This document shows, one piece after another, positions 1 to 33,862 of a stretch of 64,000 nt of DNA. The stretch is from contig JAYTHE010000011.1 in assembly GCA_043732705.1 (NCBI GenBank), positions 71,605 through 135,604 of the forward strand, given 5' to 3'. Each line of letters begins with the position of its first letter. Position 1 is the first letter of the stretch. The notes below the pieces were generated by a model. It saw nothing but the letters and a program-made list of their open reading frames with translations. It was not told where the DNA came from and did no database searches. A program made the translations under genes and the position numbers. The DNA comes from Candidatus Omnitrophota bacterium. Lineage in GTDB: Bacteria > Omnitrophota > Omnitrophia > Omnitrophales > Aquincolibacteriaceae.

Positions 1-3000
1 AACGAGCAAATTCAACCAATCCTGCTGTTCCATGACCGAACCCATTTGAGACTTTTGCAGCATTCCATAGATCACGACCAAATTTAATGCCGCCCCAGGC
101 CGACGAGACCAAATATCAAGCAAGGCACGCTGAAGCGGTTGATCGGGAATGCTTAGCCACAAATCAAAAAATCCTGCGACAAGAGCTTCGTCTGAGCTGC
201 CGCCATGTTGAAGTTTTCCAAATAACGGTGTCGGCGGAAAATCATTATTTCGAGTCAATTCTTGCCCTTGAACCATTCCCCGCAACAGCTTTCGGCGGAT
301 TTCTTCAGGCAAAGCCAAATAAGCCGGACGACTGATCAGGGAGTAAATTTGAACAATATAGTTTGCCCAATGGTGGTCGGCATCGCGCTGAACAAAAGCG
401 ACCTGAGTTGCCGCGTCAGGTAAAAATTGCGGCTCGGATAGAATTTTAAATTCTGCCGCAATGCGGCGAATTTCATCTTCAGTAAAAATGAGTTCCCGCG
501 GGTGCCGTGCCGTGGCACCGCGGCTCCTATCGATATGAAATAGTCTTAAACCTCGAAAGAAATAAACCACAGCAACAACACTTCCAAAATCAAGCGGAAT
601 AAGTGCGAAGCAACGCGCATACAATTCAGCAAAAAAACTACGCTCTAAATAGGTCAGCTTGTTGAAATATTCATTTTGTAAAATCTGATTTAACATCCAA
701 AATGCGCCAGAATAAGGTGAAAGCTCACGCATAATCGCAGTGAGACGCATGTTTGAGATGGAATAATGCGGTTGAATTTTTGGCTCTTCGATTGCATGCG
801 ACTTGTGAAACAGCCTGTACCACCCCATTAAAAATGGAACTGCCAACCAGCGGAATGCCGTAAAAATTGCTTCTCCAAATCCCCGCGCTTCCGAGCGTTT
901 AGTGCCATTTCCCAACCACAGCGAGCCTGAATCTCCTGTGCGTGGCTCCGGTTGAACCGAAGAATCTGGCTGACGGGTGGCGCGCGCGTAAAATTGCTCT
1001 AATAGCTTATTCACAGCTGCGTGCAATTGCATGCGCTCCGTGGTTTTTCGGCGGCCTTTTCCAACGGGTTGTCCTTGAGTTTTTAAATGGAGGTCTGCAA
1101 AAATTCGATGTAATGCTTCAGCTTGCTCCGCAGACTTCACAGAAATAAGAATTTTCTGAATTTCATTGAAGAAAGCTCGTTCGGCGTTCAATTTCTTCAT
1201 AAATTCTCGCTCTGTTTTCAACGAAAGTGTCATTCCATCAAAATAGTATTCCCAAAACAACTCCTGTTGCTGCGCATTCCAAATTTGAAAGACCGAAGTT
1301 TGAAAGACCGCCCTTATATGCCCCAACTCAATCTTTGTGGCATCAAAAATGACGCGAATCCATTGAGGATGACTTAAATCCATGTCCCTTGCCAAAACTT
1401 GAACACGACGAATATAGGGCTTCGCCAAATCAAAAGGCACATCCCTCAAATTGGTATAAAGCCATACCCACAGCCACGCAGGAAAATCAGAAAATGAAAC
1501 CTGAGGGCGCATCACACGAATAAAATCAAGCACGCTATTACGCTGACTCAGATCCCACTTAGAGTAAATAAAATGGCGCGATAATTTCCAAGCTGCGTGT
1601 AAAGATTGAATGCTCCACGATGCATCGATAAATAATTGACGCCAACGCGCATCGTATGCGGCTTTTTCTTCCGGCGACACCTTCTGATAACCTTCACTTA
1701 AATCGGGCTGCCAACGCTTAAAAACCTTCCAAACTGTCTTTTGATAAAGCTGCGAAACCCATAACGGCAAACGCATTTCCGAACGCTGTAATTCAACAAC
1801 AGCCGCGACTGGACCACCTGAGAACCACAAACTACCTTTATCTCCATCCTGATTTTCAGTTGATGCCTCAGGTGGCATAGACATACGTTGATGACGTTCC
1901 AACAGTTGTTGGAGAAGTGGTAAAACTTGTTCAGTCGCTTGCCGCAACGTAATGTCCCGCAAGGTCGTTCGTTCTTGCTCAGTAAGCCTATGACCATTGA
2001 ATTGCATTAAACGGGATGCGATGAATGCAACAAAAGAAAAACGATGCCCCTTGGAGGTGCGGTAAAATTCCCTAAGTCGACTCATAAACAATTCCAATTC
2101 CTTGTCATTGCGAATTAATTTCAACCGCAAAACTTGCGCTAAAAATTCAAGCCCATAATAATCATCTCCACCAAAAAAGTGCCTTAGGCTACGCAATAAA
2201 GGATCTTGGAACCACTTTGCGAGAGGCAGAAGGCGTGGATGATTAGCAATATTAAGCAGTAAATATTCACCATCAAACCCGGCAATTCCATATTCAGAAG
2301 TACGCATGACTTTGCGTAATTTTCCAGCTTGATCAATCCAGTAAAGCGGATGGTCTGGAATTCCCATGGATGGTTTCAAAGTTTCATCCGGTCCAACCAT
2401 AAAGACCGCGCTTGCGTCGACCGTCCAGATCTTCCGTTCTCCGGAGAAATTCTTTCGAATCAATAGTTTATGTCCGGTTTTTAAACTTTCCACATACCAG
2501 TTACCGGGATTGCCGGGGCCGCTTTCCGCATTTTCGTTATAAGTCACGTAATCATTACCGACAAACTTTGGAAATGACGGATCTTTGCCGAAGGCAACGA
2601 TTCTCGTCCGTGTTTTACGGTCCCAAATTTCAGCCGGTTTTTTATCCGGATAATTAAATTTCCATAGCAGTACCTTGGTTTGGTCGGGCGAAACTTCAGC
2701 ATGTTCAAAACCATAGTATGTTTCTAATTGCCGGCCAGTACTTTGTTCAAAAATAGTAACCCGGCTGCCTTTCAAATCACTCAAAGCCAAAAAACCATTT
2801 TGTGAGAAAGTACAATGCCGAAAGTTCGTTCCATACTTTGTGACAGGCTCAAGCGTCGCGGAATCGATCAAAATTCCCACAAAGGTTTGAGGATACTGTT
2901 CACCGCCGTCATGATGGTAGTAATCCGCTTGGAAATAGCGTAGTTTTCCGTCAGGTGAATAGTCCGCGTCGTGACTAGGCCCTTGCACATGGTTGTATTT

Positions 3001-3300
3001 GTTGCGCCAAGGGTACCCATGCGCATCAAAATATTTTCTTGCGATTTCTTCGAGCTGGTCACGGGTTAATTCTGCCGGCTTTCGCTGCCCTGTTTTGATA
3101 TCCGTATAGCGATAACTTTGTTTCCAATCGCGCCGCTGGCCAAAATAACTGCGCCCACCTTCAGTAAATAAAATCGTATCGCGTTTCACGCCGCTTCGTT
3201 TTCGGTCAAGCCAGGTCCATTCACGCACAAGCTCTTGAGCCGCTTTCAAAGAAATTTTCCCCGTCGACCGCATTTCTGAGCGGGCTTTCGAACGAGAATT
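1..3300 (-). other. C-terminal propeller-like plus helical module of gene B (an eleventh, partly divergent super-repeat), truncated by the window edge.
   Basis: ARSEMRSTGK verified at ~3270. Blade-like SPDGKLRYF and SPDQTKVLLWKF segments. SLWFSGGPVAAVVELQRSEMRLPLW verified at 1765-1860. SLWLGNGTKRSEARGFGEAIF verified at 850-960. Degenerate RSRGATARHPRELIF at ~500. Confidence 0.45.
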
Positions 3301-6300
3301 TACAGCTTGTGAAGCTGCGCCGAGAATCCCCGCCAAAGCGGCGCGCTGAAACTTTGAAAAATTGCCTGAGCCTTTACGATTGTAAAAAACGCTGCGAATA
3401 ATTTCCTGCAATAATGTTTTAAGTGCAGCAGGCAGCTTCGAGACTTCGTCATCATGCAGATAAATCGACCATTCATGCCCGTAAACATCGGGCACAATGG
3501 CAGTATCATCGCCCAAACCAATACCGAGAAAATCTGTTTTGGTGCGTCCGATCAGACCATTATTTTTCCGAATTCGTTCGAGAATTGTTTGGATCGATTT
3601 AATATCACCAACACCATCGGTCAAAACCATCACAAAATGACGGTCACCGCCTGCTTTTTCAATATCGCGGATCGCGGCTTCAAGCGCCGGGCCTTCATCG
3701 TTCCCGCCATAGGCTCCAATACTATTATGTAAATCATCCACCACCGCGTCCCGGTCTTTTTTCGTCGAATACCCGTCGGGAATGGCTTCGTGTCCGGGAC
3801 GCTCATATTCCTTGCGTTTATCATCGGGAATTTTTTGGCCTTTGAAACGTTTATGCAAATGCGTTCCCGTGCCATAACCGCGAATCGCAAAATCAATGCC
3901 GAGTGCCTCAAGCACTTCCGCAATTAATGTCACGCCGATCAAAGTTTTATAACCTTTGTCCGTCGCCTTCTGTTCGGCTTTTTGCCCTGGTTCACCCATG
4001 CCCGCCATCGAACCGCTTTCATCCACGATAATCGTAAATTTGATATTTTTTTTCTGTGGAATGATCCGATGTTCAAAAACATTCAGGCCATTTGAAAAAC
4101 CATGCGCAATGGCTTGAATCAAATCCTGGACATTGAGCCGGCCTTTTTTCTTATGTCTTTCCCATTTCGGGCGCGTGGAATTCAAAATCAAATCCCGCAA
4201 ATAGCCGGTCAATTCATTAATCATGCGGCTAATTAAAGGCCAGGCCATCAACCGGTCGCGCTCACTCATCGGCCGCGCGCCTTCATGATCCCGTTTGGCC
4301 TGCTGAAAATCTTTGGCGTCTTTCGCTGTGCGGTCCACAGCTTTACCTTCGTCTTCATACTCTTTTTTCATTTCATCTAAAATTTGCCGGCGCACATGAT
4401 CCGGCAATGTCCGATATTCCCGCGCCCACTCTTTCCATCCTTTTGTCTGCCCCGATTGAGGGGGCTGGTTACCCTCGCCTTTGCCGGAACGCGGCATGGT
4501 GGCAGACGCATCACCCTCTTCGCTCTCGCCTTTCTCGTCACCTTCACCCGGCTCACCTTTTTGGCCTTTTTTCCCTGACTGAGATTGACCTGATTTTTGA
4601 CCGCGCTGTCCTTTACCGCCCTGACCTTGTCCTGGCCTCCCTTGACCCTGCATTCCTTTTTGGACCGACTTCACAAACCATTTATAAACACGGGGTAATA
4701 TAATTTCACGGATTAAAACTCCTTGCTGCAAAGATAATTCCTGCAAAGACTGCTCGGAGGGATAGCGGTCAAATTCCCAAACACCGCGGTCATTCTTTCG
4801 CACCGGTACAAGCGAAAAAACACCACGCATCGGCGATATACGCCTGCGTAATTGACTCTTTTCTTCGGCTGTTAAATGTTTTTGCTCTTCATAGTCGTTT
4901 AAAACACCAACCATGTCCTGTTCCGTACCGCCGCCAAAAATGCCGCCGTCGACAAGCTCTTGAGCGTCAGCCGCCAGCTCTGGATCGCGCTCACCTAATT
5001 TTTTGATAAAGTTCGGGATCATTTGCATCGCGTCGGCATCCCAACCGCGCTTCGCCATGAAAAGAAAAAAGTTAAGCAGCGCGTTGACATCATCAATCGG
5101 TTCACCCGGCTTACCAAAAACCATTTTCTGAATCAACTCTTCGGGATTTTTTTCTTTAAAAATAACTTCATCATTCGTAGCCTTCAGCGGCGTGGCGGCC
5201 CCTTGAAAAAGCATGCGCGCCCAGTTTTCAATACGCCCGTCTTCAAGAATGTTGAATACATGCGCGGCCACGCCGAAGGGATCAAAAAATTCCGCAAATT
5301 GATATAAATAGCGTGTGCCGTAGCGATGCATGGCTTCATGAATACCTACGCCGATGAGCGCATTCAAGCTGAGCACATTGATCATTTTTTCATCATAAAA
5401 AAGCGTGCGCGTTGACGGCTGCCAGGCCCAGCCTTCTTCGCTCGCTTTCAACGTAATATCCATGCCTTTTGTGACAGCCGAAAAAGTATCTTCGTAAATT
5501 TGCTTTTTCTTTTCTACCGGCATTTTTTCCCATTCACCTTTGGACGGCAAATTCTCAGGCAACCCACCTTCGCCAAAAGCTGCAATGGGTTTGGCCATCT
5601 TGAGTATTCCTCCCGGCTGCCCAACGGATGAACTTGACTGACTGGACATCGCTAAAAAAGGCGAGCCGCCATGAGGAATGTCTTCACCGCTCATCCCCGC
5701 AATTTGACGCCGCGTTCCGCCTAATGCCTCTGCGACATCCAAATCCGTGCTGGATTCTTCCGGTAACCCGCGTTCAATCATCGCTTGAACAAAAGATTGA
5801 ATCCCGCCAAGCATCATGCGGTATTGCTCGCCTTTACTACGTTGACTGCGCACCCATACTTCGCGAAAACGGCTGCGCAACGCCGGTGAAAGCGGCACAC
5901 GACCGGAATTCATTCCGGTCCGCCCCTCGAGAGGATTCATAGTGCCGGCAAGTCTAAAATTCGGATGAATATTGACCTGCACTTTTTGTCCCTGAATAGT
6001 CAGCGTACCGCGGTCAAAATATTCATTTAAGATTTCAATCACGGCGCTGTCCGCCATGTTCAACTCTTCTAAAACGCATAATGAGCCGCTTTCCATGGCG
6101 CGGATTAAATCACCCTTTTTAAACTGAAAAGTACCTGTCGTTTCATCAATCACAAAATAGCCAATCAACGACTCAACCGTTGCGGCTCCGAGCGCAACCG
6201 AAACATAAGCCCAGCCCAGTTCACGGGCAATATCCGCAAGCATTTCTGTTTTTCCGCCGCCGGATTGCCCAATCAGCGCCAGCGGCTGAGATTGATGCAC

Positions 6301-9300
6301 CCAAACGACCTCTCCTTTTTCATTTCTCCGCTCAACCAACCCTCCGTCACGGAAAAGTTTCATGATTTGAATGCGTTCAATCTGCGTCGACTGCAATTCG
6401 ACTAGCTTTTCAATGCGATCGGCTTGCGTATAAAGCCGCTCGTGGATTAATTTTAAAACTGCTTTCATCAAATCCGGGTATGTGCCGAACTCCTGTTTTG
6501 CCCACGCTTGGACTTTGTCATACAAAATAGCTTTGGGACTGCGTTCATCGCCGCCAAGCCGCGCCGCTTCCATTTCTTGTTCAAAATAACTGCGCAAGGC
6601 TTCCGGATCCAGCTTTGGCAATGCCGGTTGACCGCCTTGATAGGTCAATGCCACCTGTCCCATTTCAATTTGGATTTCTTTGAGTGTGCCCTCCAAAATA
6701 TCGTAAACCGTGAGGCGCGGCACCCAAACTCCTCCTAACTCAAGCCAATCCACTCCCTCGTTCGAAACGCGGCGCAGCCGGTGGAAAGTTTTAAAGAAGT
6801 CATCCGACTCAGGATTCCAATTCAAATATTGTTCAAATAATTTTCGCAGTTTTGAAAGATTATCCGGCAAAGCTTCCGCAGGCGGAACAGATTCGGGCGA
6901 GGTTTCGGCTTCCGCTTTTTTCTTCTTCTTGGAAGCGACAGGTTTTGCGCGGCGGGTTGCCGGCGACCGGCTGGCAGAATTTTTCATCCGTGCTTTCATT
7001 TCAGGATAATCATCGATTGTGGTTTGTCCGAGCAAACCGGCGTATTCAATCCAGGCTTCCCGTAAAAGTGCGGCTTGATAATCCGCGTATTGGGTGCCGT
7101 CCGCACCTGCGATTGGATTATGCTGGGCGCGGACTTTCGCGTCTTTGACAATACGCTCTAAATTGCGTAAAGCAAAACGATAGGTATCATCGATATTAAA
7201 CTGTTCAAAATAATTATGCCGGCTCCGATCATGAATATCTTTTTGCATGGTTGCTAATTGCACTAGCAACTCCATCGAAATATTAGTTTCTTGGAGACTA
7301 TATTTATGCATGAGAATTTCAGCCATTTCCTGCGGAGTGATTTCAGGCACGCGCATAATCTCAAAGCGGTTCATAAAAGCTTCGCTCATGCGATTGCGGC
7401 CGGAATAACTCGCCGGATTGCCGCTGACCAGCAATTGAAATCCGGTTCCGGGAAAAATTTTCCGGCCTTGATATTCAATATAACCAAGCGTCAACAATTG
7501 ATACAAAATACCGATCGCATCTTCATTGGCTAAATTAAACTCATCCAGCAGCACAACCTGGCCTGCGACACCCTGATCACGGTCACCCATCGCTTCAAGC
7601 AACAAACCTTTTTTAAATTCCAGATCAATCCCAATCGAGCCGTTATGGACCAACGCGGCGATGGAACGTGTTAAGTCGCGCAACCGGCCGTTGTTTTGCC
7701 TTGCCCCTTTCAAAACATATTCACGGATAAACTTTTTAATCAATTCCTGCTGCGACACTTGGTGACCAGCAGGAATTCCGGCCAAACGCTGCAATTGCTC
7801 ACGGCTAAAACCCAATGTTTGCAATGATTTTTCCAGAACTCGAAAATTGCGTCCTTGAAGGCTTTCCTGTAAAACTTGATAGCTTTCCTGCAAGGACAAA
7901 TTAAGCTCCACCGGCTGATACGAACCAAGCAAGTCATACTCATCCGTGCGTGGATTCATCTGAATACGGCGGAATCCGACTTGCTCGCTGGCGGTGACGT
8001 TTTGATTCCAAAGATGCACGGCCAATTCAATCATGGTCGACTTACCGCCGCTGGTTTCACCCAACAACATCATGGGATTGAAGCGCCGCGCATATTCAGG
8101 ATCACGATAAAATCCGTCCAGCAAATAGCCCATTTGCTGCCGGGCTTCTTCGGTCATTACAAAACCGCGCTCTTGTAATATGGCTTTGGATACACTCGCA
8201 ATAAACAGATTGCCGCGATAAATATGATAAGCATCCCCTTCGTCATGCCAGGCATAGTCTTGATTTTCAAAATGATATTGCGGAAAAACATCTTTACGGA
8301 CAAGAGCATGATCCGTTTCGTTCCCAAGCCGGCGGTCATAAATTCGTTTAAGTGCGTGACGCAAAGCGTCTTCCTCCGCGATACCGCGCCGCATATCCTG
8401 CGCGACCCAATCCACAACCTTAACGACGTCGCGCAAGCTGGCGTAATAACCCTCGTTGTCGTCATTTTCTTTACCGATTTGCTGGCCCTCAACTTTTGCC
8501 GCGAAAGCAAAATAAGTCCGGCGAATTTCTTCGACTGTTTTTTTTGAAACCTCAACTTGCCGGTTCGAAAATTTCTTGCGAATGATTGCTTCCACTTCTC
8601 CCGAAGTCTTTTCATGCGCCACCCAAACTTCCGAAAAACGGCTGCGCATAGCGGGTGAAAATCCGGCACGCCCGCCGCTTGCCCCCGTCACGCCTTGCAG
8701 CGGATTCATCGTCGCAAAAAGCCGAAAATTAGGATGGATTTTTATTTTTACGCCTGTCAACGGGTTGGTGAAAGTGCCTTCATCAAAATATTCATTCAAG
8801 ATTTCAACCAGACCGGAAGGCATCATGTTAATTTCTTCAAGTACCAGAATCGATCCCTCTTGCATGGCCTGCACGAGCACACCGGCGACATAACGGAATT
8901 TTTTTGTTTCTTCGTCACGTTCAAAGCTACCGACTAGCCTTTCCATATTCGCGTTTGCGAGTGAAACTGAAACATATTTCCAATTTAAACGCCGCGCGAG
9001 ATCCGCCACAATTTCGGTTTTTCCGCCGCCGGATTGTCCGATTAAAAGTACGGCTTGACGAGGATCCATCAAACCTTTGGCTACGGCAAGCCGGATTAAG
9101 TCGGTCTGTTCGGAGTCAGCCAGCTCTTCAACTACTTGCGCATCCTGCGAAGGCCCTCCGCGCTCATAATGCCGTCCGCGCAAACGGAAACCTCCAACTT
9201 CAACTGTAGGCCGGCGGCTGATTCGATCGATGCCGCTGGAAAATGAAATTTTGATTTGACTGGGATTAAAGTTTGGAAAAAATTCTGGGGCTATAAAAAG

Positions 9301-12300
9301 CCGGCGAAAGGCGGCGGTTTCTATCGGACTGCGGCCAAGAATGCCGGAATATTCGAGATAAGCTTGCTCAAGAATCATACTACTTAGCTCACGCGCGCTC
9401 GGCGGCGGCGCGCGTCCTCGCATGCGAATTAAGTAACCAGTATTCTTGATAATTTTTTTCAAATTTCGCAGCGTAAACATATAACCCTGTGTTGTCCCTG
9501 CACGTGCGGACGGAAAGTCACCTTCGGCCAAATGCTTGTTTAAGTGATCCTGGAATGCCGCTAATTTTGAAATAACATCATGCTCAATGGTGGTTCCGCC
9601 AAAAACCTTTTTATTGCGCATCATTTCGGTTTCGACAATTTCCGCCGCCTCGGCTGCCGGCATATTTTTTACAAACTGCATTTCAAAACGGTTCATGAGG
9701 GCTTCGCTTAGCTGATTCCGGCCTTCATAGGTGGTAGGATTTCCGGTAGCAATCAGCTTAAAACCCGCTGCCGGGTAGATTTTCTCAACTTGCCCCGAGT
9801 CCTTGTTATAAGTTTCGATAAAACCCAGCGTTAGCAATTGATAAAGCACCGCGAGCACTTCTTCGTTGGCAATATTCATTTCATCCAACATCGTAACGTG
9901 TCCGTGTTTCATGGCATTCAACAACCGTCCCTCACGAAAATCGAGTTCGACATTTAAAACTCCGTTATGCGTGAGCAAAGCTAACGATTTAATTTTTCGA
10001 ATGGCATCTTCCTTAATCTGAGGATCGGACGAATCCGCAGTACGCAGCCATTCGGTAATTTTTTCACGCATGGCCGCGATTTCAGCACTCCAAATATCGT
10101 CCCATTCAGCCGAAAGCGTTTGATCATCCGATATTGCCGACTGCCCATACTGAATGAGATCCATGGCCCGCTTTAATTTGACCCACTGCCCGCCTTCCAT
10201 GGAGTTTTGGATGACGCGAACGGCCTGGTCCGTGGAAATATTCATTTCACGCGGCTCGTATGACCCAAAAAGATCATAAGCATCGGTTCGTTCACTGAAT
10301 TGAATGCGCGTATAACCCTGCCGTAATAAGTTCAAAGCAAAAAACCGCACAAGCGAGCTTTTACCACCGGCAGTTTCGCCGATTAAAAGCACGGGATTGA
10401 ATTTACCATTCTGAACGTCAGAATTTTCAAGCGCCGTGGACTCTGCCAAAGTCATGAGATTTTCTAAAGTGCGCCGATTTTCCACCAAACGTGAATCAGA
10501 TAAAGTGTTGTTTAGTTTAACCTGCACCGCGCTATCTATTTGCTGACGCGGCATACCTTGCATCGCGGCTTCCATTTCGTGCCGCAACTCATTCTCAAGT
10601 TTTGAAGATTGAACACCGAAATCAAATTCAGCAACAAGCTGCTGATCGTCAAAAAACTGCAACCGTCCCGCGTCCAGATGGTAGCGCGGCACTTTAACTT
10701 CAAACTGTTTAATATTTGCTTTTTTCAAAACTCCGCGCACTGTTTCACCATCGGCCGCGTTTTGCATTCTCAACTCGTAAACACGATGCATCGCACGCGC
10801 AAGCGCCGCATCCATTTTCATTCCCCGCGCATTCCAATAGCCCATTGCTTTTACGACACGCCGTAAGTCACGCAAGCTGGTGTAATAAGCCGGCTCACCG
10901 CGATGACGGAACACCTCACGATACTCTTTAAAGAAAGCCTGTATTTTAAGCGATACAGCAGAATCAAATTTCAAATCATACTGTTCAAAAAGTTTTTGTA
11001 GAATTTCATCCATTTCGGAAGCAGATTTTTCAGCCGGAATCCAAACTTCGCGGAAGCGACTGCGTAACGCGGGCGATAAATGTACACGGCCGCTATTTTG
11101 CCCCGTCACGCCATCCACAGGGTTCATCGTCGCGAAGAGACGAAAATCCGGCGACACCTTGACTTTTTGAAGCGTGAACGGATTGGTAAAGGTTCCTTCA
11201 TCAAAATATTCATTCAGAATTTCTAAAATTCCGGGCTTGGCCATATTAATTTCTTCAAGCACAAGCGCCGAACCTTGATTCATCGCCTTAATCAAAACAC
11301 CAGGGCGGTACACAAAGCGTTTTTCCTTTTTGTCATATTCCATGCTCCCCAACAAATCTTCCAAAGTTGCGTCGCCGAGTGAAACAGAAACATAATCCCA
11401 GCCGAGCTTGTACGCTGCGTCGGCAATCACATCGGATTTACCGCCACCCGATTGCCCCACAACCAGCACGGGTTGATTTTGACGAAAGCCTTTAACAACC
11501 TGGGTCATGGCATATTTTGTAGATTCAACAAATACAAGCGGCTCCGTCCAGCGTCGAACAGTCCGTGCCTTGCCATGGGTCTCAATACCGTCGATTGAGA
11601 CTGTTTTGGATTGATCGTTATGGCGCATCTCAATTGTTTTAAAATTTCGTTCAATTAAATTATCAAATGCGTCCTGCGCCGTCGAAAACTGACCGCGAAA
11701 TAAATCTCCCATTTGCACGCAGAAAATATTGCGTAAACGCTCATAACTTAAATCATTCTTAATCGCATCGGAATTTAAAAGGTACACATCGGAACGCAGC
11801 AAAACTCCGCTAAAAAGCATAAAGGACTCGCGAATCCAAGATTCGAGGTTTAACTCCTGACCGACCTGTTTACGCTCTAAAATATCCCGATAAATTCGCA
11901 AGTAATCGCGAATCGTAAACATGTAATTACTGTCGGCGCCCATATTGAAGCGTCCACCAAGTAAATACTGATTCAATCCTCGCTGGGTATCCGCAAGCGC
12001 GATCAATTCCCTCTGTGTCACGCCAAATTCCTGCTGCAAGTAGCTGTCGATTCGCTTTTGAAATTCAATTTCGCTTTCACCTTGAGCTCGCATGAAATGT
12101 TCGGGGGTATACCCTCGCAAACGGATTAAATCTTTTTGCATGGTTCCGTACAGAATTTCAAACATTTCCTGGCCATTCATTTCTTTGACCCAGAGAATTT
12201 CAAAGCGATTCATGAAGGCCTCACTCATGCGCTTTCGACCGGCATAACTCGAGGGATTCGCCGTCGCGATGACGCGCGGACGACGGCTGGTTTCAGGTTC

Positions 12301-15300
12301 AATAATTTTTCCGTGATATTGCAGCCACCCCATAGTGAGCAGCTGGTAAAGAACCCCCAGCATTTCTTCATTTGCTAAATTGACTTCGTCGAGCAGAATT
12401 AAATCACCTTTTTTGTAAGCCGTAATAAAACGCCCTTCCATATAGCGCAACCCGATTTCATGATTCATTAAATAGGCGAGCGTCCGAATCTCATCAGCCT
12501 CTTTTTTTTGATTTTCGTCAAACTTTACAGCCCCTAACTGAGTCAGCATCTTCCCACGCTCGATTCGATTCTGAATACGTTGAATCAAACGGCTTCGAAT
12601 CGCGGCTTGTTGCTTCTGACGCATCTCATCGCCCGTCGCAGTTCCGATAATTCCCGCACGTTCCTCCTCCGTAAAAAAAGCAGACCAAAATTGACCTTCG
12701 TTGCCTGTGAGCATCCGGCTTAAAGCTTCTTCCAGGTCATTCCATTCGCCACGATCCAAAGCTTCTTCCAATCGCTCCACTGCCTCTTTCAAAGAAATTT
12801 GCATTTCATAAGGCTGGAAAGAACCAAACAAATCAAATTCGTCCGTGCGTTCGTTGATTTGAATGCGGGTATAGCCGGAACCAGTAATCTTGGCTGCCAG
12901 AGCCGCCAGCGTGCTTTTGCCTCCGGCAGTGTAGCCAAATTCAAGAATCGGATTAAAACCTTTTTCATCATCCAAATCCATCGCGAGCAGCAAATGCGCA
13001 AGATTTTTTCGCGTGGTTTGATTAAAAATAACATCTTGAGCAATGTCACCCGGCTCAAGCGGCTTCTTCAATTGAATACGCAGCAATTCCCACGGCGGCG
13101 ACTGTTCCGTGCTGTGAGCGATAACTTCTTTTCCCGGCAACCTCTCACCCGTATCTGTCGCATTTTCCCGTTGAAGATATTGTTTTATTTTTTCACGGCG
13201 TCTTTCGGTAATAATAATTTCGCGGCTGCCTGCCTCATAACCGGTAATATCATAAATGGAGTCCAATTCTTCTTTAGGATCAATGAGACGGTTCGCGACA
13301 AGCGCCATCCGAACACGGCTGCGGTCTTCGTCGCTGTTTAAGCGGTGAACATAACGACGGCGCAGAGCAAGCTCAAGCGCTTCGCGAATATCCCGTTTAC
13401 CGTCAAAATAACGGCGGGCGATTTTGAGAGTTTTCTTAAGATCGCGTAAACTGACATAATAAGCTTCATCGTTGACTTGCCCGATTTCGTGTTTTGTCAC
13501 CATCTGCTCAAACTCATAATGAAAATTAACGACACGCACGAAATAACTAAAACATTGCATGAGTTTATTAAAATCATCCAGCGTATTTCCGGCATGATCT
13601 TTGTAAAGATCAAAAAGTTCCTTTAATAATTCAGCCGTACCCGAACCCGCGGAGCGGCTGATTTTGGCGATCACTTCCAACATACGGTCATATTCCTGCT
13701 GATTTTCAGAAAGTCCGTATTTATCGCGCAAAGCACCGAATGGAATTTGATCAAAAGCTTCCTGTCCGACATATCCCAAAATCAACCCGATTTGCTTGAA
13801 GCGATCCACGCTTTGACCAATAATTCGCAAATACTTATCGCCGGTTTCTGTATCACGCCCTAATAATTTGCCGGTAACAACTCGCAAGTTCTCGCGGCTG
13901 GTGTTTGAAATTGCCGCAAGCGCTTCAAGCAAATCCAGTTCGGACGCCATCGGAAAATAATTTTCCTTAAGCACGCCTAGTCCATTCTGACAAATTCTTT
14001 TAACTTCACCGAAATCAAGCAACGGACCCAAATTATCTTCAGGATTAATGCGAGCCGTATTAAACGTGATCGTCATCATTTGGCGCAAATGCCGCATGTC
14101 TTTTTTGACCAGCGCTTGCATTTCAAGCTCATCCCCTTCTATTTCTTCACGCGCATTCAGCTTATAAAGCAAACTTTTCAATCCTAATGAAAAAACAGCC
14201 CCGATGATATTTGCGTCATAAGGACGAAGTTCCGGATCTTTCTTGCTAGCCTCATTTCCGGGAGTCACTGCGACATAATCACGTCCTGAATAATGCAGCC
14301 TGTATAACTGCGAAATTTCACGCATTACTTTCAAATCCTCAACTTCCCCCATGTCTTTGCGTGCTTGCTGATACCAATCTTCAAATATTTCCGGCCAATC
14401 CTGGCGCGCAATGACATGCTCAAGCACTTCGGTCAATTGTGGTTTTTTCGCTAAGAGATAATTTACGACAAAGTGATCCAGCTCAAAATCCGCCACTTTT
14501 CCCGATCGCCCATAAAAAGTTTTCCATTGAAATAGCGATTGCAGCCTTGCCGTAAATACCTTCAATTTTTCCGGAACAGATTCACTCAGCCGGTCTGTCG
14601 TACCGGAAAAAATTGCCGCATGCACGTAGTTGATACGCTCATTCACTTTGAGAGGATCTAATTCATCACTATTTTCATAATGAGAAATCAGTGACTCCGG
14701 CAAAGTCGACAAAACTAAGTAAGCACGGAGCTGCCGCATCCATTCATCCGGATGATCGATGCGTTGACGCGCTTCTGCTTCAATCGATGCCAACCGCGTG
14801 TGCATATTTTTTTCAGCTTCATCCCAATGATGCGTCATCCATTCGGGTAAGTCGCGGATAAAACCTGCCATTCCCGATTGTTCTGCTTCAGCACGAAACT
14901 GCGTAATAAAATTGCGAATTTCTTTTTTAATTTCACGGATTTCAGAGCGTGCTATTTTTTTCTTTAATGAGTTTACGGGCGCAGCGCCTTCCCCCATAAG
15001 CCACAAGGGATTGCCGTCTGGCGAACTATCCGCCGGACGGACACTCTTTCCGGTCACGCGTTGATTCCGGAACCGCCATGCTTTTAATTTGTTTTGAAAT
15101 TCACCGGGATTTTCCCAAAGCTGCAGAAATTCTTCGCGCGGAATTTCTTCCCAGTTTGCCGTATTGTTAAACTCCAAAAGAAAGGCTGCCAACTCGCGCA
15201 TCTTGTCAGGATGATTTTGCAATCCGTCCAAACTATCCACAAACCATTTAAAGTCTTCCTGAGTCACGATGTAACGACTATCAACCAAAGCTGATAAAAT

Positions 15301-18300
15301 CAGCATTGCGCTTAAAGCATTTGCACCGAAATGTGAAAAAAGTGAGTCGGGGCGCAGGTCCACAACATGATCCAAGGTTGTTGGGCTATCTCTCGGGCTC
15401 GCCGGCGGTAGGACTTGACGCATCAATGCGCGCGTTTCCTGGGGTGCTATTTTTAAACCGGCAAGCGGCAAACCCCAATCCGTACCATCAATATTCAAAA
15501 GCCGGTACTTTGTATCGCTTGTACCGTCGGCCGGGACTTTGGATTCCGATATTTGAAATTTTGTACCTGCCTGCTTGAGCGGATAATCTAAATCGTCTGC
15601 AATAACGTGGCCGTCGCCCAAATTCCGCACACTAAATTTCTTTGTTTGTTTATTTTCAATCCAAAGCCTGCCACCCATAGGATCAAAACTCGGCACAAAC
15701 GATTTTTCCCATTTTTCTAATTCAACACCGGAAGCAACATCCCGCATTTCAAAATGATCTATCTTTTCTAATAGAACCAATTTTTCATCCGGAGAAAATT
15801 GAACGCGCAATGAGTCATTCCCGGCAAAAGCAAGCGCTTGAGACACCCCTCGCAGCGGATAAACAAATTCAGTGCTATGTTTAAGCCCACCAACACTGCG
15901 CTGAACGATGCGATAAGTTCCTTTGGGTGAAAATCGAAAACTTTGAATTTGCATATATTGCTGCAGGCTTCTGGCTGACCGCACGTCATACAATTCAAAT
16001 AAGCCGCCCGAATGCAGGATGAGCGAGCGACTGTCAGGAGAAAAGGACGCATCCAGAACACCAGTCATATTGAAACGCCGCAATAATTTTTTAAGCCTCA
16101 AATCATATAAATTAGCCCGTTGAGTTCCGTCCAACTCAATCACAAGACAGTAGTTTTTATCCGGCGAAAAAACAACGCTTGAAAAAGCTTCGTTCGGATC
16201 GACAAATTCATCATTTTTATCGAGCGCAACTACCTGTTTGCCAATGTCGGTTAGTCCGGTCAAAGTAAAATATTTACCATCAGGAGAAAATGATCCGCCA
16301 AATTCATTGCCAATTTGCCATGCACCATTTTTGCTGCCCGAACCCTGACCGAATTCGTGCAAGCGTTTTCGATGCTCTAAATCCCAAATTTCCGCGGAAG
16401 ATGAATCCTGGATTGGCATAAATAATTTCTTGTCATCTGGAGAAAAAACCGCTGAATTCGGATCTGATCTTTTTCCTAAAGAGTAAAGCCAGCCCTTGTC
16501 AATCCAGCTGTCATCAAAATTGATTTGGCGCTGGCTTAATCTAAAGATCAGCACTTCTTTAACCATCTCATAAAACGAACGTAAGCGCCAATCGCCGGAT
16601 GCGCGCATTTCGGAACGCGCTGGCTTCTTTTCGTCCTCTAGCCACAAAGGATCACCGCCGGGCAAATCTTTGCCGGTCTTTTTCTTGTCATCATCCGCAG
16701 GTTGACGAGCATCGCGTTTTTCCCAATCCTGGAACCGTGCTTTAAAATTTCGCGGATGCTCCCAAAGACGAACAAAAGTCTCGCGAGGCACTTTTGACCA
16801 GGGCGCCAAACCTTCTAAATGCTCCATAAATTGCGCGAGCGCTTCCATTGCCGACGGGTCAGTATTCAGCTCATCTAAGCTTTGTATAAACCAATTCAAG
16901 TCCTGTTGCGTGAGAATATAATGAGCGTTAATCAATACACCCAAAATCTGCATGGCATTAACCGCATTCTTCTCAAAATGTCTAAAAAGCGATCCGGGCT
17001 TTAAATCCACAACAAAGTCCGATGTATTGGCCTCATGCCTTGGAGATTGCCAGGTTCGACGAATTAAGGCTACCGACTCATCACCAGCTATTTTGAGGTT
17101 GCGCAGAGAATGCGCGAGCATCAGTTTTTGATCATCATCTAAAAGCTGATAATCACCGTCCGTACTATCTCGAAACATTCTTCCACGGCTTGATTGAAAA
17201 TTTACTCCCTGTCTTTCGATGGGAAACTCCAGATTATCCGCAAGAATGACGCCGGTTTTCAAATCACGAACGCTAAATCGTTCTGCGTTTACATTTTTAA
17301 TAAAAAGTCGTCCCGCTACGGGGTCAAAACTCGGCTGCTGCGGGTATTGAAATGCTTCAATCAATACTCCTGTCTGAGCGTTTCTTAATTCAACAATATT
17401 TTTTTTCTTCAACAGCGCAAAAGCTTCATCGGATGAGAAATCAACATGCTCCGTGTCACGGTCAATCCAGGCGAGCGATTCCGTTCCTTTTATTGGATAA
17501 ACAGACTCCGTCGCTGGACCTCGCGACCGCGGTCTCTTAATAATGCGGTAAGTTCCGCGTGGTGAAAATCGGAAATTTTGAATCTGAGCATAATGCTGGA
17601 TCAAAGTGCCATGCACCGGCTCACGAACTTCCACTTCTTCGCCCGCTAATAAAGAAAAATAACGGCTATCAGAAGAAAAAGCCGCTTGTTCAATTCCGCG
17701 CAAATTAAAAGTGCGCGGCGCTTCCTTGGAATCCAAATGGTACAGAGTTGCCTGCTTCCAATCTTCTCCGACCGTCAGACAAAACCTACCGTCCGGAGAG
17801 AACACAACCTGGGAAAACCATTGAGTTTCAAGAACAAAACCATCTGCGGGATTAAGCGCAAAAATGCGTTTGATGCCGTTCCGTTCACCTTCGATTAAAT
17901 ATTTTTCGTTTGTAGAAAAGTGAAGGTTGTAGACAAAGGCGTTGGACGTAAAATCAGCCATACTTCCTGCTTGAACTCTTTTTAACCGGCGCAAAAGCTG
18001 TAGTGTTTTTAAATCCCAAATTTCCATCCAAGCCCCGATCGCAGCGCAAAACTTACTCCCATCACGCGAAAAATCAGAGAAACTAAAGTCGAGTTCGGGG
18101 CGCGTCCGCCAGTCGAATTCATTTTTTCGGCCTTGGATTTCTTTGTTTTTTCGATCCTCGATCAAAGTAAAGGTTTTAATTTCTCGGACCAAATCCAAAA
18201 ATGTGCGTGTTTTCCAATCACCGGCGGTACGGACTTCTGAACGCTTTGAAGCCTCAGCCACACCCTGCAGCCAAAGTCCCGCATCACCCTTGCTTGCGTC

Positions 18301-21300
18301 CGGCGGCATTAATTTTTCAGCGCGGCCTGCCTCACCCTGTTCGCGCGACATACGCTCAAGTGTTGCCATTGCCAAAGCAGCGGCATCATCATGACGCTTC
18401 AAAATATCAAAAATGACCGTGCGTCCTTTTTCCAAATTAAATTTTGAATTTCGAATGATTTTTTCAATACCTAACGCGGCAAGAGGAAGTATTTTCGCCG
18501 GAATTTTTTTAAGCAATTGCGTTACCAAGCTATAATCAGCGCTGTCTCGAATCACGCCCGCGTCAAACAATGAAGCAAGTAAATGCATGACATAGGGCGC
18601 GTCATCTTTGAGGCGACGCTGGATCTTGCTTATTTCGGGATTAAGGTTCTTCCAATTCCAAAGCTTGAATTGATAATGATAATCATCTTCATCCACCCAT
18701 GTTATTAATCGACCTGCATATTCACCCCACCGAGCATGAAAATCTTTCGCCTGATCACCGTCATAAGGAATTCCTAAATAAAAAATAATTTCTCCGGTTT
18801 GTGAGTCAAATAAATAGCGACTATTTTCTTCATCTTCCGCATCAGATGTCGTGACAACTGCGCCGTCTGGAGAGAACTCAAAATTACTATTCCCCCTCTT
18901 GCTCTTTAATTTGGCAATGGGCGCTAAAGTTACATTATCAAAGACAGTCGCGCGGCCATCGGGAGTGAGCGCTGCAAACCGCTCACCGGTTTCAGAATAT
19001 TCGGGGCGGCTTACCGGTTCGGACAATTGACGAATTGTCCGGCTTCGAAGATCAAAAACACTTTTAAACTGTTCGGCGCTTGGGGCATGATTTTTTGATC
19101 CTTGAAACCAAAGCCAACGGTTTTGCGGGTCTTGTTGAATCGTAATAGAAATGTCCGTCATCAACGGAAACTCCTCACCACTTCTTAAATCGAGCACAGA
19201 CAAGTGCTGTTCCCCCTTCGGATCCTGTTCACCATCAGTCCGCAAAACAAGAAAACTCCCTAGAAAGAAAATATAGTTATATGCCTTAAAATGACGCGGC
19301 AAGGCTCGCGAAGTAAAATGTTTGGTTTCATAAACATCATTGTTCAGTAAAATCCATTGGCCGTCATCGGAGACACCACTTTTATCGATAACCTCCGGTT
19401 GCTTTCCAAAACCATGCAACTTCTCTCCGGTGGAAAGATTCATCCAAAACAGATGGTTTTCCACATCCAATACTAAAGCAAGATCATCCTCTTTTCGGCC
19501 GGCCGGAAAAAGAACAGCTTCTACCGGTCCCGGCAAAAACACCGGTGGCTTTCCGGTTTTAAACTCAATTAATCCGCGTTTAGCACCAGATGATTTAAAA
19601 TAAAAATACTTTTCACCAGGAGAAACCCAAGCAACTTCAGCAATGCCTGTATGAATGGCCTGTTCCGCCCCGCTAACCAAATCATAGTTTCGAAATGCCC
19701 TTCCACTTAAAAGCAGTAGTTTTTCATTTGTGGCCCGGACCATTTTCCCGGGGACGCGTCGCGCTTGAACGGCGCCCGTTAAATCCATCACCAGCGTCCA
19801 GCTCGAATTGCTCAAAATCCACCACCGGCCGTCTTTTGAAAAATAACTTTCCTGAGCTCCGGGCAATAATTTTTCAGGACTGCTCCAATCTTGAAGCGCT
19901 TTTTTAAACGCTTCATAATCTTTAGTGCTGATCTTTCGTGATTCTGATCTTCGCTTTACCAAGACAACAGCAGCAGACCCGCCCCCTAAAACACCCGTCA
20001 GCCAAAGCTCGTTGGTGCCCGGTTTCGGCAAACCCAAATCGATCTCTTTACCGGATCGCTTACGCTCGATCCGGCTTAAATACAGCTGCATCTGAGTTAA
20101 AAACGAATCAGGCGAGCCCGATCTTAAAATACTCGCAACCATATTCTTGGCGTCGGCTTCTTCGTGCTGAAACAAAATCGCTTCAAGAGCGATAGAAATT
20201 CCCTTTAAATCTTCACATGGTATTTGCTGTAGATGATTTAAATAAAACTGCCAATCCGCCTTTGTTTCGAGTAAATGCAACTGATTCAGCCATGCCAAAA
20301 TATTTAAAATAAAAATACCGTCGAATTTCCAACGGTTAAATATTTTGCGCGACAGCATGTCCGTGATTTTTATCGGCAACCATTTGGCAAAATGGTGCCC
20401 CATTAAATTGACCAGCATAGTATCGCCTGGAGCGGACGGCGGATGAGTTAAATCGATTTGGCGGTACGGCTGCAATATTTTTCCGGTCACTGCATCCATT
20501 ATCATCTGTTGGCCGCCTTGTGTAATATTCCTCATGTCATAAATCCGGACATACAAATATTCGCCTTGGCGTGAAAAATAAAAAGTTGTGCGGCCCGGAA
20601 TGCGACGAATGAGCCGTCGCGTTGAGGTCTCATGCAATTCAAAAGTATCCATACCCTTTCGCTCCGCATAAGTTTTTCCGTCAGAACTAAACGCAAGCAT
20701 TCTCACATGATTTGAATTTTTATGACCGCTCAATTCCCCTAAATAATGACTTGCATCCATGCCCGTCTGAATTAAATTGAAATATTCATCGGGGTCATTC
20801 AGAAATTTTTCATGCGACCCCCACTTGTCATCCCATTCCCGAATAATTTTTTTAGACGGCCACTCCCAAAGCATGTGATGTCCGTTGTCATCACGAGTAT
20901 GGACTTGACCCAATCGATCAGACACAAGCACCAGCTTGTCTTCAAACTCTTTAACAGATTCGCCCGTGCGCATATCATAAGCACGAAAATGAAAATCGTT
21001 TTCGCTTCTAAATTGATTGTTCATGGGATACGTCATGACCAATCCGGTACTCCCATAAAGCGCCGCCAAATCATTTGCCGCCAGATTAAGATGCGACTCC
21101 TCTTGTAAAATAAATTCTAAGCCTGACCTCGCAATTCTCTCAAACATCATCCCCTTAATTCTGTCGCGCCTGCTGGCGCTTTCCCGTACAACCACTCTTT
21201 CTTTCCCCAAAAACTCAATCGCAGCATAAATATCAACATCGGGCTGAACGACTATATTTTCGTGGGTTTGATAATTACGCAAAACATGCTGCTCAGCTTT

Positions 21301-33827: not shown

Positions 33828-33862
33828 GAATTTAATTAGGTCCTGTTTTTAGAGAACTACGT

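What the first reader, a model, noticed from the sequence alone, without database searches (positions are those of the whole stretch)
3400..4680. A low-complexity tether followed by a VWA domain with an intact MIDAS motif, C-terminal to the AAA hexad. This completes the midasin architecture.
KFTIIVDESGSMAGMG... (DxSxS, verified) lies ~600 aa after AAA6. It is immediately preceded by a Gly/Gln/Lys/Glu-rich unstructured stretch (GQGRPGQGQGGKGQRGQKSGQSQSGKKGQKGEPGEGDEKGESEEGDASA). The order AAA ring, helical linker, flexible acidic/low-complexity segment, MIDAS is exactly that of Rea1/Mdn1, where the MIDAS domain binds substrate UBL domains and transmits force. In bacteria the MoxR ATPase and its VWA partner (CbbO/NorD/ViaA-type) are normally separate proteins, not a six-AAA fusion.
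Basis: partly seen in the sequence, partly recalled or inferred. Interest (0 to 1): 0.8.

Follow-up and report, generated by a model that had tools for sequence, protein, structure and literature searches.

The report
Bacterial midasin-like AAA ring plus MIDAS
Inside a giant (>10,800-residue) gene of an Omnitrophota-like bacterium sits a single-chain ring of six ATPase domains tethered to a metal-dependent adhesion (VWA/MIDAS) domain, an arrangement otherwise known from the eukaryotic ribosome-assembly motor midasin, which here was built independently from bacterial CobS/CobT-type parts.

Summary
On the minus strand, one stop-free frame (window 1-32556, >=10,820 aa, C-terminus beyond the window) holds six AAA_5 ATPase modules, then a 300-aa domain, a 70-aa Gly/Gln/Lys/Glu-rich disordered stretch, and a VWA domain with DxSxS and the distal Asp. 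The MIDAS Thr is Asn.

The VWA call rests on homologues, profile searches and a confident model. The nearest solved folds are NorD VWA and the Rea1/MDN1 MIDAS domains.

"Completes the midasin architecture" is only partly right.
- The "helical linker" is a CobT-N-like domain with an invariant HExxH zincin signature, not the 1,700-aa Rea1 linker.
- The ring is a triplicated AAA pair whose insert-bearing modules are at positions 1/3/5, against 2/4/6 in midasin.
- The VWA is not the end of the ORF.

The same module recurs in about 12 Omnitrophota species and, with 2, 4 or 6 AAA domains, in other bacteria. The triplications were independent. About 90 of the 150 listed hits are standalone proteins of about 600 aa with the same HExxH-VWA layout.

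Most likely it is a self-contained MoxR/VWA-type remodelling engine. It is a new variant of a known kind, with moderately high interest. A recurrent LW...RSE[VM]R junction motif flanks the unit and may mark processing sites.

The parts
1..32460 (-). Giant ORF-A. ATG at 32460; stop-free to the left edge of the window, so the C-terminus is missing; at least 10,820 aa.
   Evidence: Stop-free frame over 1-32556. Candidate start codons. One N-terminal hydrophobic segment and none across the ring-VWA region.
14935..14949 (-). Junction motif RSEIR (pA 5869-5873), preceded by PLWL. Upstream boundary of the 3,889-aa unit that holds the ring and the VWA.
   Evidence: A motif at the same relative position in L008, L009, L013 and L018.
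13072..14934 (-). N-terminal region of the unit, about 620 aa, with no recognised domain.
   Evidence: No Pfam hit apart from the edge of AAA1.
11593..13071 (-). AAA1. Insert-bearing type: Walker A GYTAGGKS, Walker B LILLDEVNL.
10516..11592 (-). AAA2. Compact type: GQSGGGKS, Walker B ALVLEEINM.
9175..10515 (-). AAA3. Insert-bearing type: GETAGGKS, with a roughly 100-aa insert in the H2 hairpin.
   Evidence: The alignment to Mdn1 AAA2 breaks at the same place.
8197..9174 (-). AAA4. Compact type: GQSGGGKT.
   Evidence: Best solved match is Rea1 AAA3 (66 bits).
6406..8196 (-). AAA5. Insert-bearing type: GETSGGKS. Followed by a Lys/Ala/Pro-rich spacer.
5581..6405 (-). AAA6. Compact type: GQSGGGKT.
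4642..5550 (-). CobT-N-like domain with a zincin signature: H9072-E-x-x-H9076 (codons 5326-5340) and E9104-D9105 (codons 5239-5244).
   Evidence: HExxH invariant and ED at least 90% conserved in 49 sequences. Full-length profile match to CobT. The N-domain profile hits only zinc metallopeptidases, best the minigluzincin MJ1213 at E 4e-5. pLDDT about 90 for residues 1-130 of the model.
4432..4641 (-). Gly/Gln/Lys/Glu-rich low-complexity tether, predicted disordered.
   Evidence: Composition. pLDDT 33-39. Length and sequence vary among relatives.
4057..4431 (-). Charged helical spacer plus the pre-VWA 'finger' (finger about 4057-4266: LISRMINELTGYLRDLILNSTRPKWERHKKKGRLNVQDLI...).
   Evidence: Aligns to the midasin MIDAS N-terminal element and to the region that holds the NorD finger. 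Invariant Gly9471. Model helix 430-459 plus hairpin, pLDDT 87-94.
3382..4056 (-). VWA domain with MIDAS residues: D9511, S9513, S9515 (codons 4009-4023), Asn9618 at the Thr position (3700-3702), D9646 (3616-3618).
3268..3282 (-). Junction motif RSEMR (pA 9758-9762), about 30 aa after the last VWA helix. Downstream boundary of the unit.
   Evidence: Same relative position in L007, L008, L010, L013 and P0001.

Best explanation
The region encodes a self-contained MoxR/VWA-type mechanochemical engine embedded in a giant Omnitrophota-type protein.

A single polypeptide supplies all six subunits of an AAA_5 ring, built as three copies of a two-module unit (an insert-bearing module plus a compact module). 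The ring is covalently followed by a complete CobT/NorD-like adaptor. The adaptor has an N-domain with an intact zincin HExxH site, a disordered tether, a helical 'finger' and a MIDAS-bearing VWA domain.

Shown here:
- the domain order;
- the intact ATPase motifs in all six modules;
- the VWA fold and four of the five MIDAS ligands;
- homology of the adaptor to CobT, NorD and the midasin MIDAS domain;
- conservation of the whole unit in many species;
- its independent assembly from AAA-pair ancestors.

Inferred from solved NorQ-NorD and Rea1/Mdn1 structures: the finger docks in the ring pore, and the MIDAS metal binds an acidic residue of a protein substrate. ATP-driven movement of the ring then rotates or pulls the VWA relative to the N-domain, stretching the tether and remodelling or extracting the bound protein.

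More speculative: the zincin domain cleaves the engaged substrate. The recurrent LW...RSE[VM]R junctions that flank this 3,889-aa unit and the other modules of the giant protein may be its recognition or processing sites. Cleavage at them would release a midasin-sized protein ending in the VWA.
For: - Ring. There are six AAA_5 modules, and all keep Walker A, Walker B and an Arg finger. Midasin is the best solved relative at E 1e-75, followed by CobS, NorQ and CbbQ.
- Pair structure. Modules 1/3/5 are 31-33% identical to one another and modules 2/4/6 are 45-56% identical.
- Invariant residues are HExxH, DxSxSM and DG.
- Zincin. The N-domain profile hits minigluzincins (4e-5), Ste24 (M48), M1 aminopeptidases and FtsH/YME1.
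- Disorder. The tether is predicted disordered.
- Conservation. Ten GTDB loci, seven titled Omnitrophota, hold six alternating Walker A motifs, HExxH and, where the locus reaches that far, DxSxSM in one frame. Further six-AAA fusions are seen in P0003, P0022, P0036 and P0149. Relatives with 2 or 4 AAA domains also exist.
- Standalone forms. In the 104 hits that carry both motifs, HExxH and DxSxSM lie 250-620 aa apart. One standalone gene lies 3 kb from an AAA_5 gene.
- Mechanistic template: the NorQD finger-in-pore mechanism and the midasin MIDAS loop (PMC13036017).
- Junction motif. It occurs 11 times against 0.14 expected, flanks the unit, and is conserved in other species.
Against: - No substrate is identified.
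- Docking of the VWA on the ring was not modelled.
- The MIDAS Thr is Asn, and metal binding is untested.
- The compact AAA modules have Walker B 'EE' rather than 'DE', so their hydrolytic competence is uncertain.
- The zincin assignment rests on a short profile match (E 4e-5) and motif conservation. The homologous CobT N-domain lacks HExxH and is not a protease.
- The junction motif is absent from about half of the orthologous loci. It may simply be a conserved inter-module linker.
- Whether the giant protein is cleaved at all is unknown.
Confidence: 0.6

Rival explanations
1. It is a metal-insertion chaperone in the strict CobS-CobT or NorQ-NorD sense. The ring and VWA would open a target metalloenzyme, perhaps another domain of the giant proteins, to load a metal cofactor. 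They would not extract or process a protein.
For: The closest sequence relative of the whole adaptor family is cobaltochelatase CobT, over its full length. CobS and NorQ are among the best ring matches after midasin. Asn at the MIDAS Thr position is shared with CobT. One relative is named cobaltochelatase CobT by its source, and several carry Pfam CobT and CobT_C.
Against: No CobN-like or other recognisable metalloenzyme target was found in the 64-kb window. The N-domain keeps an invariant HExxH that canonical CobT lacks. The AAA-fused clade's finger and VWA match midasin rather than CobT or NorD.
Confidence: 0.15
2. It is primarily an AAA+ protease analogous to FtsH, with an ATPase ring and a zincin. 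Its main job would be to cut the giant polyprotein at the LW...RSE[VM]R junctions, with the VWA serving only to hold the substrate.
For: The HExxH...ED signature is invariant and zincin-like. The junction motif is strongly over-represented (11 against 0.14 expected), lies in Pro/Gly/Ser/Asp-rich linkers exactly at the boundaries of paralogous units, and brackets the ring-VWA unit. It is conserved in several species. The literature on these giants treats cleavage as an open question and cleavage points as unknown.
Against: MoxR-class rings are not known to thread substrates into a protease chamber. The zincin domain follows the ring on a flexible chain rather than forming a chamber. The motif is missing in about half of the orthologues that keep the zincin. 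The roughly 90 standalone HExxH-VWA proteins are not part of polyproteins.
Confidence: 0.15
3. It is a true midasin orthologue, acquired from a eukaryote or ancestral to eukaryotic midasin with conserved function, acting on ribosome or large-RNP assembly.
For: Midasin is the top solved hit for both the ring and the MIDAS. The alternating H2 helical inserts and the finger are shared.
Against: Identity is only about 30%. There is no Rea1 linker. The module order is shifted by one. Within the protein, same-type modules are much closer to each other (45-56%) than to any midasin module. Corresponding positions are orthologous only within Omnitrophota, and other lineages triplicated independently. 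Relatives with 2 and 4 AAA domains form the outgroup. No Ytm1/Rsa4-like UBL ligand was looked for or seen in the window (from general knowledge, bacteria are not known to have them). The unit sits inside a protein of more than 10,800 aa anchored by an N-terminal hydrophobic segment.
Confidence: 0.03

Closest known systems
Midasin (Rea1/Mdn1/MDN1), the eukaryotic 60S pre-ribosome remodelling AAA+ protein
   Different: There is no ~1,700-aa structured linker; a roughly 300-aa CobT-N-like zincin domain stands in its place. The insert-bearing modules are 1/3/5, not 2/4/6. The tether is Gly/Gln/Lys/Glu-rich, not D/E-rich. The MIDAS Thr is Asn. All six modules keep ATPase motifs. The VWA is not at the end of the ORF. 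The hexad arose by a lineage-specific triplication. The host is bacterial and no UBL ligands are known.
Aerobic cobaltochelatase CobS-CobT (solved as 9uka and related entries)
   Same: The adaptor family aligns to CobT over its whole length: N-domain, charged linker and VWA (E 1.9e-46). Asn stands at the MIDAS Thr position. CobS is an AAA_5 relative of the ring modules (E 3e-9).
   Different: ATPase and adaptor are fused, and the ATPase is a single-chain hexad of two module types. The N-domain has an invariant HExxH that CobT lacks. There is no CobN in the neighbourhood.
NorQ-NorD (and CbbQ-CbbO) MoxR-VWA chaperones
   Different: NorQ is a homohexamer of separate 30-kDa chains. NorD has the canonical MIDAS Thr and no HExxH. 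Its C-terminus, which is free and essential in NorD, is followed here by more protein unless the chain is cleaved at the RSEMR junction.
Minigluzincins and M48 (Ste24) zinc metallopeptidases; FtsH as an AAA-plus-zincin precedent
   Same: Edge strand plus an HExxH helix, and a downstream acidic ligand motif (E 4e-5 to 0.04). Like FtsH, an AAA+ module and a zincin lie in one chain.
   Different: The match covers only about 60 residues. Catalysis is untested. The ring belongs to the MoxR clade, not the classical FtsH clade.
Omnitrophota giant proteins ('Archaeovorins', bioRxiv 10.1101/2023.11.21.568195)
   Same: The host protein is of this kind: more than 10,000 aa, mostly without recognised domains, with closest relatives in Omnitrophota MAGs. 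That study lists AAA_5 among the frequent domains.
   Different: That study does not describe a six-AAA ring, a VWA/MIDAS, the zincin domain or junction motifs. It states that cleavage points are unknown.

Membership tests
Midasin (Rea1/Mdn1) | Six tandem AAA_5 modules in one polypeptide | tested here: met
   Six Walker A, Walker B and Arg-finger sets. Pfam AAA_5 E 1e-59 and 3e-54.
Midasin (Rea1/Mdn1) | H2 helical inserts on AAA2, AAA4 and AAA6 | tested here: not met
   Inserts sit at the homologous site but on modules 1, 3 and 5, so the ring is shifted by one. Rea1 pattern taken from PMC6286127.
Midasin (Rea1/Mdn1) | Structured linker of about 1,700 aa (stem, middle, top) after AAA6 | tested here: not met
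   Only about 300 aa lie between AAA6 and the tether. They are homologous to the CobT N-domain and to zincins. No midasin match covers them.
Midasin (Rea1/Mdn1) | D/E-rich disordered region before the MIDAS domain | tested here: inconclusive
   A disordered tether is present, but it is Gly/Gln/Lys/Glu-rich rather than acidic.
Midasin (Rea1/Mdn1) | C-terminal MIDAS domain with DxSxS...T...D and a ring-docking loop | tested here: inconclusive
   DxSxS, the distal Asp and the finger are present. Thr is replaced by Asn. The VWA is not terminal in the ORF, though an RSEMR junction follows it by about 30 aa.
Midasin (Rea1/Mdn1) | Orthology: each AAA position corresponds to the same position in eukaryotic midasin | tested here: inconclusive
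   Not tested against midasin modules in a tree. Among bacteria the triplications are lineage-specific, which argues against position-by-position orthology.
Midasin (Rea1/Mdn1) | Acts on pre-60S particles through UBL-domain ligands (Ytm1, Rsa4) | not testable with these tools
   No functional data are available. The organism is bacterial.
CobT / NorD-type VWA adaptors of MoxR-class ATPases | N-domain, charged or disordered linker, and a VWA at the end of the adaptor | tested here: met
   Full-length profile match to CobT. The same layout occurs in about 90 standalone proteins. Supported by the model.
CobT / NorD-type VWA adaptors of MoxR-class ATPases | VWA fold with a MIDAS | tested here: met
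CobT / NorD-type VWA adaptors of MoxR-class ATPases | Works with an AAA_5 (CobS/NorQ/CbbQ-like) hexamer | tested here: met
   Here the partner is fused upstream. One standalone relative has an AAA_5 gene 3 kb away.
CobT / NorD-type VWA adaptors of MoxR-class ATPases | Metal insertion into a defined target (CobN with hydrogenobyrinic acid diamide; cNOR) | not testable with these tools
   No target gene was recognised in the window.
Zincin (gluzincin-type) metallopeptidases | HExxH plus a downstream acidic third ligand on a zincin fold | tested here: inconclusive
   HExxH is invariant and ED is at least 90% conserved. The profile hits only zincins, best E 4e-5. The fold of this domain could not be searched separately, and Pfam gives no hit.

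The most novel reading that the evidence does not exclude
Eukaryotic midasin, and so possibly the dynein/midasin lineage, may descend from this bacterial family of 'AAA-pair plus CobT-like adaptor' proteins. It would then not have arisen from a single-domain MoxR that was multiplied after eukaryogenesis.

On this reading, four features all pre-existed in bacteria: the alternating compact and H2-helical-insert modules, the pore-docking finger, the disordered tether, and the MIDAS domain. In bacteria the pair has repeatedly been doubled or tripled into single-chain rings.

In addition, the Omnitrophota giants would be polyproteins, punctuated by LW...RSE[VM]R sites from which this 3,889-aa motor is released.
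Probability: 0.3. Interest if true: 0.85.

Novelty: new variant of a known kind. Interest (0 to 1): 0.62.

Why it matters
The accepted account is that a MoxR-like ATPase became a six-AAA single chain 'early in eukaryotic evolution', giving midasin and dynein (PMC3495828). This window and its relatives show that bacteria have fused an AAA pair, a CobT-like adaptor and a MIDAS domain, and have tripled the pair into single-chain rings several times. The family shares midasin-specific traits: alternating H2 helical inserts, and a finger-MIDAS whose only solved sequence match is midasin.

That gives a concrete, sequence-rich outgroup for testing where midasin's ring came from. It also offers a smaller set of natural 2-, 4- and 6-AAA variants for studying how such rings work.

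For the Omnitrophota giant proteins, whose function and processing are open questions, it identifies an ATP-driven engine and a candidate protease. With the junction motif, it also provides the first testable candidates for cleavage or docking points.

Tried and rejected
- Word-indexed homologue searches with the linker plus VWA, and with the VWA alone, found nothing. Low-complexity words probably swamped the candidate list. The exhaustive search was needed instead.
- A single-sequence AlphaFold run was useless, with pLDDT 37.
- Pfam and NCBIfam on the window sequence alone gave only a sub-threshold VWA and nothing for the HExxH domain. My first guess of DUF2201_N was not supported.
- A close-relative scan of GTDB genomes found nothing, so the source genome is not among the species representatives. 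The profile scan worked.
- I considered a seventh, degenerate AAA module. No further P-loop or AAA_5 stretch was found.
- ORF-B was checked for a paralogous ring or VWA and has none.
- A literature search for a prior description of bacterial six-AAA/MIDAS fusions found little. There is a passing note of 'midasin AAA ATPase (MDN1 superfamily)' annotations in Endozoicomonas, and AAA_5 appears in a figure legend of the giant-gene preprint. The part of PMC7203096 that mentions midasin lies beyond the text held.
- No tRNA genes were found in the window.
Full report
**What is in the window.** The window holds two enormous minus-strand reading frames. ORF-A is stop-free from 32556 to the left edge (10,852 codons, first ATG at 32460). 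ORF-B runs from the right edge to a stop at 34337 (9,887 codons). The finding lies in ORF-A. Both quoted peptides are there: KFTIIVDESGSM at window 4041 and GQGRPGQGQGG at 4647. Below, 'pA' is the 0-based residue index counted from 32556, and window coordinate = 32556 - 3 x pA.

**The AAA hexad.**
- Pfam finds AAA_5 (dynein-related) at E 1e-59 and 3e-54 on two overlapping pieces.
- Six Walker A motifs lie at pA 6540, 7033, 7392, 7839, 8165 and 8762. Each has a Walker B and an Arg-finger-like motif.
- Midasin is by far the best solved relative (E 1e-75). CobS, MCM, NorQ and CbbQ follow.
- The six modules are of two alternating kinds. Modules 1/3/5 (GETxGGKS) are 31-33% identical to each other and carry an insert of about 100 aa. 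Modules 2/4/6 (GQSGGGK[ST]) are 45-56% identical and compact.
- The insert splits the H2 hairpin at the same place where the alignment to Mdn1 AAA2 and AAA4 breaks. The compact type aligns without a break, best to Rea1 AAA3 and AAA5.
- Rea1 has this alternation too, with helical H2 extensions on AAA2, AAA4 and AAA6 (PMC6286127). The order here is therefore shifted by one.

**The VWA domain.**
- DxSxS alone is weak evidence: it occurs five times in ORF-A against 2.8 expected. Pfam VWA on the window sequence alone is below threshold (20.1 bits against 23.8).
- Two word-indexed homologue searches found nothing.
- The exhaustive search found 173 relatives. Their VWA domains pass Pfam's threshold and also hit CobT_C and VWA_CoxE.
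- An alignment of the window segment with 48 standalone relatives has these invariant residues: H-E-x-x-H, D-x-S-x-S-M and D-G.
- Its profile hits cobaltochelatase CobT over its full length (E 1.9e-46), midasin MIDAS (7e-21; Mdn1 4e-19) and NorD (9e-18).
- With that alignment, AlphaFold gives pLDDT about 90 for the first 130 residues, below 40 for the low-complexity stretch, and 85-95 for the VWA.
- Foldseek's best matches are NorD VWA (E 1.5e-9) and human MDN1 MIDAS (5e-6).
- Of the distal ligands, the Asp (LTDG, D9646) is invariant. The Thr position is Asn9618 in the window and its three closest relatives, as in CobT. More distant fused relatives keep Thr.

**What lies between the ring and the VWA.** It is not a midasin-type linker. 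Residues pA 9002-9305 form a domain with an invariant HExxH and a nearly invariant E-D 28 residues later.
- This domain corresponds to the N-domain of CobT, which lacks the HExxH.
- A profile of the domain alone hits only zinc metallopeptidases. These are the minigluzincins MJ1213/projannalysin (E 4e-5) and proabylysin, Ste24p (M48), M1 aminopeptidases and FtsH/YME1.
- After it come the 70-aa Gly/Gln/Lys/Glu-rich disordered stretch and a charged helical spacer.
- Next is a conserved helix plus hairpin just before strand 1 of the VWA. It aligns with the N-terminal element of the midasin MIDAS domain. It also aligns with the part of NorD that holds the 'finger' inserted into the NorQ pore (PdNorD 403-448).
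- When the profile is restricted to the AAA-fused clade, the only solved hits are midasin MIDAS domains (6qt8 E 3e-10; 6or5 5.6e-6). CobT and NorD drop out.

**Distribution and origin.**
- Of the 150 listed relatives, 104 have HExxH and DxSxSM 250-620 aa apart. About 90 of these are standalone proteins of roughly 600 aa, with HExxH near residue 60 and the VWA at the C-terminus. One of them lies 3 kb from an AAA_5 gene.
- The rest are fusions with 2 AAA modules (P0013, P0015, P0074, P0130), 4 (P0009) or 6 (P0003, P0022, P0036, P0149; P0020 is N-terminally cut).
- A profile scan of GTDB species genomes found 19 loci. Those at 35-48% identity are nearly all Candidatus Omnitrophota MAGs.
- In ten of these loci one stop-free frame holds the six alternating Walker A motifs, HExxH about 70 aa after the start of the match and, in the seven that extend far enough, DxSxSM at about +450-520. 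These ORFs run off the 22-kb loci. The source genome itself is not among the representatives.
- Module-by-module BLAST shows that window module i is most similar to module i of P0003, so the hexad predates that divergence.
- The three same-type modules of P0149, of the P0020/P0036 clade and of P0022 (85-93% identical) are each closest to one another. The 2- and 4-AAA proteins are the outgroup of the Omnitrophota clade.
- The single-chain hexad was therefore assembled from an AAA pair several times in bacteria.

**Mechanism.** The parts and their conservation are shown here. How they act is inferred from solved relatives.
- In NorQD, the VWA finger sits in the AAA pore and the MIDAS is thought to hold an acidic residue of the target. 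ATP-driven steps rotate the VWA relative to the N-domain and stretch the unresolved linker. Midasin also places a MIDAS loop in its pore (PMC13036017).
- The window encodes every one of these elements in one chain, so the same scheme is the most economical reading.
- The region has no hydrophobic segments. The only ones in ORF-A are at the N-terminus and near pA 10648. This fits an ATP-using, cytoplasm-facing module.
- The intact zincin signature suggests that the engaged substrate may also be cut, but this is untested.

**A side observation that bears on function.** [RK]SE[VMAIL]R occurs 11 times in ORF-A against 0.14 expected.
- Nine copies are preceded by [LI]W[LF] and a Pro/Gly/Ser/Asp-rich stretch.
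- The stretches between copies are paralogous units of about 550-600 aa whose alignments begin right after the motif.
- No copy lies between pA 5869 and 9758. That 3,889-aa interval holds an N-terminal region, the ring, the zincin-like domain, the tether and the VWA. The downstream copy follows the last VWA helix by about 30 aa.
- The motif recurs at the same relative positions in several Omnitrophota orthologues (for example L008 at -3190 and +730, and L013 at -3274 and +759). It is absent from others.
- If these are processing sites, the product would be a midasin-sized protein ending in its VWA, as NorD, CobT and midasin do.
- The giant-gene preprint states that cleavage points are unknown.

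**Comparison with what is known, and novelty.**
- The literature I could search holds that the six-AAA chain arose in early eukaryotes from MoxR (PMC3495828).
- It notes 'midasin AAA ATPase' annotations in bacteria only in passing (PMC10664990).
- It lists AAA_5 among frequent domains of Omnitrophota giants without further comment.
- I found no description of this ring-zincin-tether-MIDAS unit.
- It fails several defining features of midasin (linker, module order, terminal position, Thr), so I do not file it as a midasin. It meets the structural features of CobT/NorD-type adaptors fused to their ATPase.
- I rate it a new variant of a known kind, of moderately high interest mainly for the origin of midasin-type motors and for the biology of giant bacterial proteins.

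Noticed in passing
window 897-30810, minus strand (motif copies begin at 30810, 27201, 25302, 23481, 21717, 18243, 16617, 14949, 3282, 1785, 897): A junction motif, [LI]W[LF]-x(5-20)-[RK]SE[VMAIL]R, occurs 11 times in ORF-A against 0.14 expected, in Pro/Gly/Ser/Asp-rich linkers. It sits exactly at the boundaries of paralogous units of about 550-600 aa and brackets the 3,889-aa ring-VWA unit. It is conserved in several Omnitrophota orthologues and absent in others. These may be polyprotein cleavage or docking sites.
   Followed up: partly
window 34340-64000, minus strand: A second giant reading frame, ORF-B, has 9,887 codons and its N-terminus lies beyond the window. It has almost no Pfam matches, only a weak GNAT acetyltransferase hit near window 35,780-35,910. 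It has about 14 strongly hydrophobic segments in clusters (window about 49,400-46,300 and 40,600-39,600), unlike ORF-A.
   Followed up: partly
window 11268-11270, 8850-8852 and 6081-6083, minus strand (the first Glu of the Walker B 'EE' in AAA2, AAA4 and AAA6): The three compact AAA modules have Walker B hhhhEE (LVLEEINM) rather than the usual hhhhDE. The insert-bearing modules have LDE. The EE form is also seen in the P0009 and P0013 sequences.
   Followed up: no
window 16000-19000, minus strand (pA about 4500-5500): Faint beta-propeller/WD40-like Pfam hits, far below threshold, fall in the two paralogous units U7 and U8 (38% identical) just upstream of the ring unit.
   Followed up: no
window 33366-34270, minus strand: Two small ORFs lie between the giants. 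One of 135 aa (33863-34270) has a signal-peptide-like N-terminus. One of 153 aa (33366-33827) has one hydrophobic segment. Neither has a Pfam match.
   Followed up: partly
whole window: GC skew is negative in every 2-kb bin of the plus strand (cumulative -4.0). This is consistent with both giant genes lying on the minus strand. GC content is 41-49%.
   Followed up: no
L004/L005 1-7100: In a metagenomic contig, a standalone HExxH-VWA gene (P0161) is separated from an 828-aa AAA_5 gene by the accessory gene (bAvd) and reverse transcriptase of a diversity-generating retroelement.
   Followed up: no
protein P0022 (4,471 aa): Its three AAA pairs are 85-93% identical to one another and are separated by repeat-rich spacers, which indicates a very recent triplication. 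Here the order is compact then GET-type, as in midasin.
   Followed up: partly
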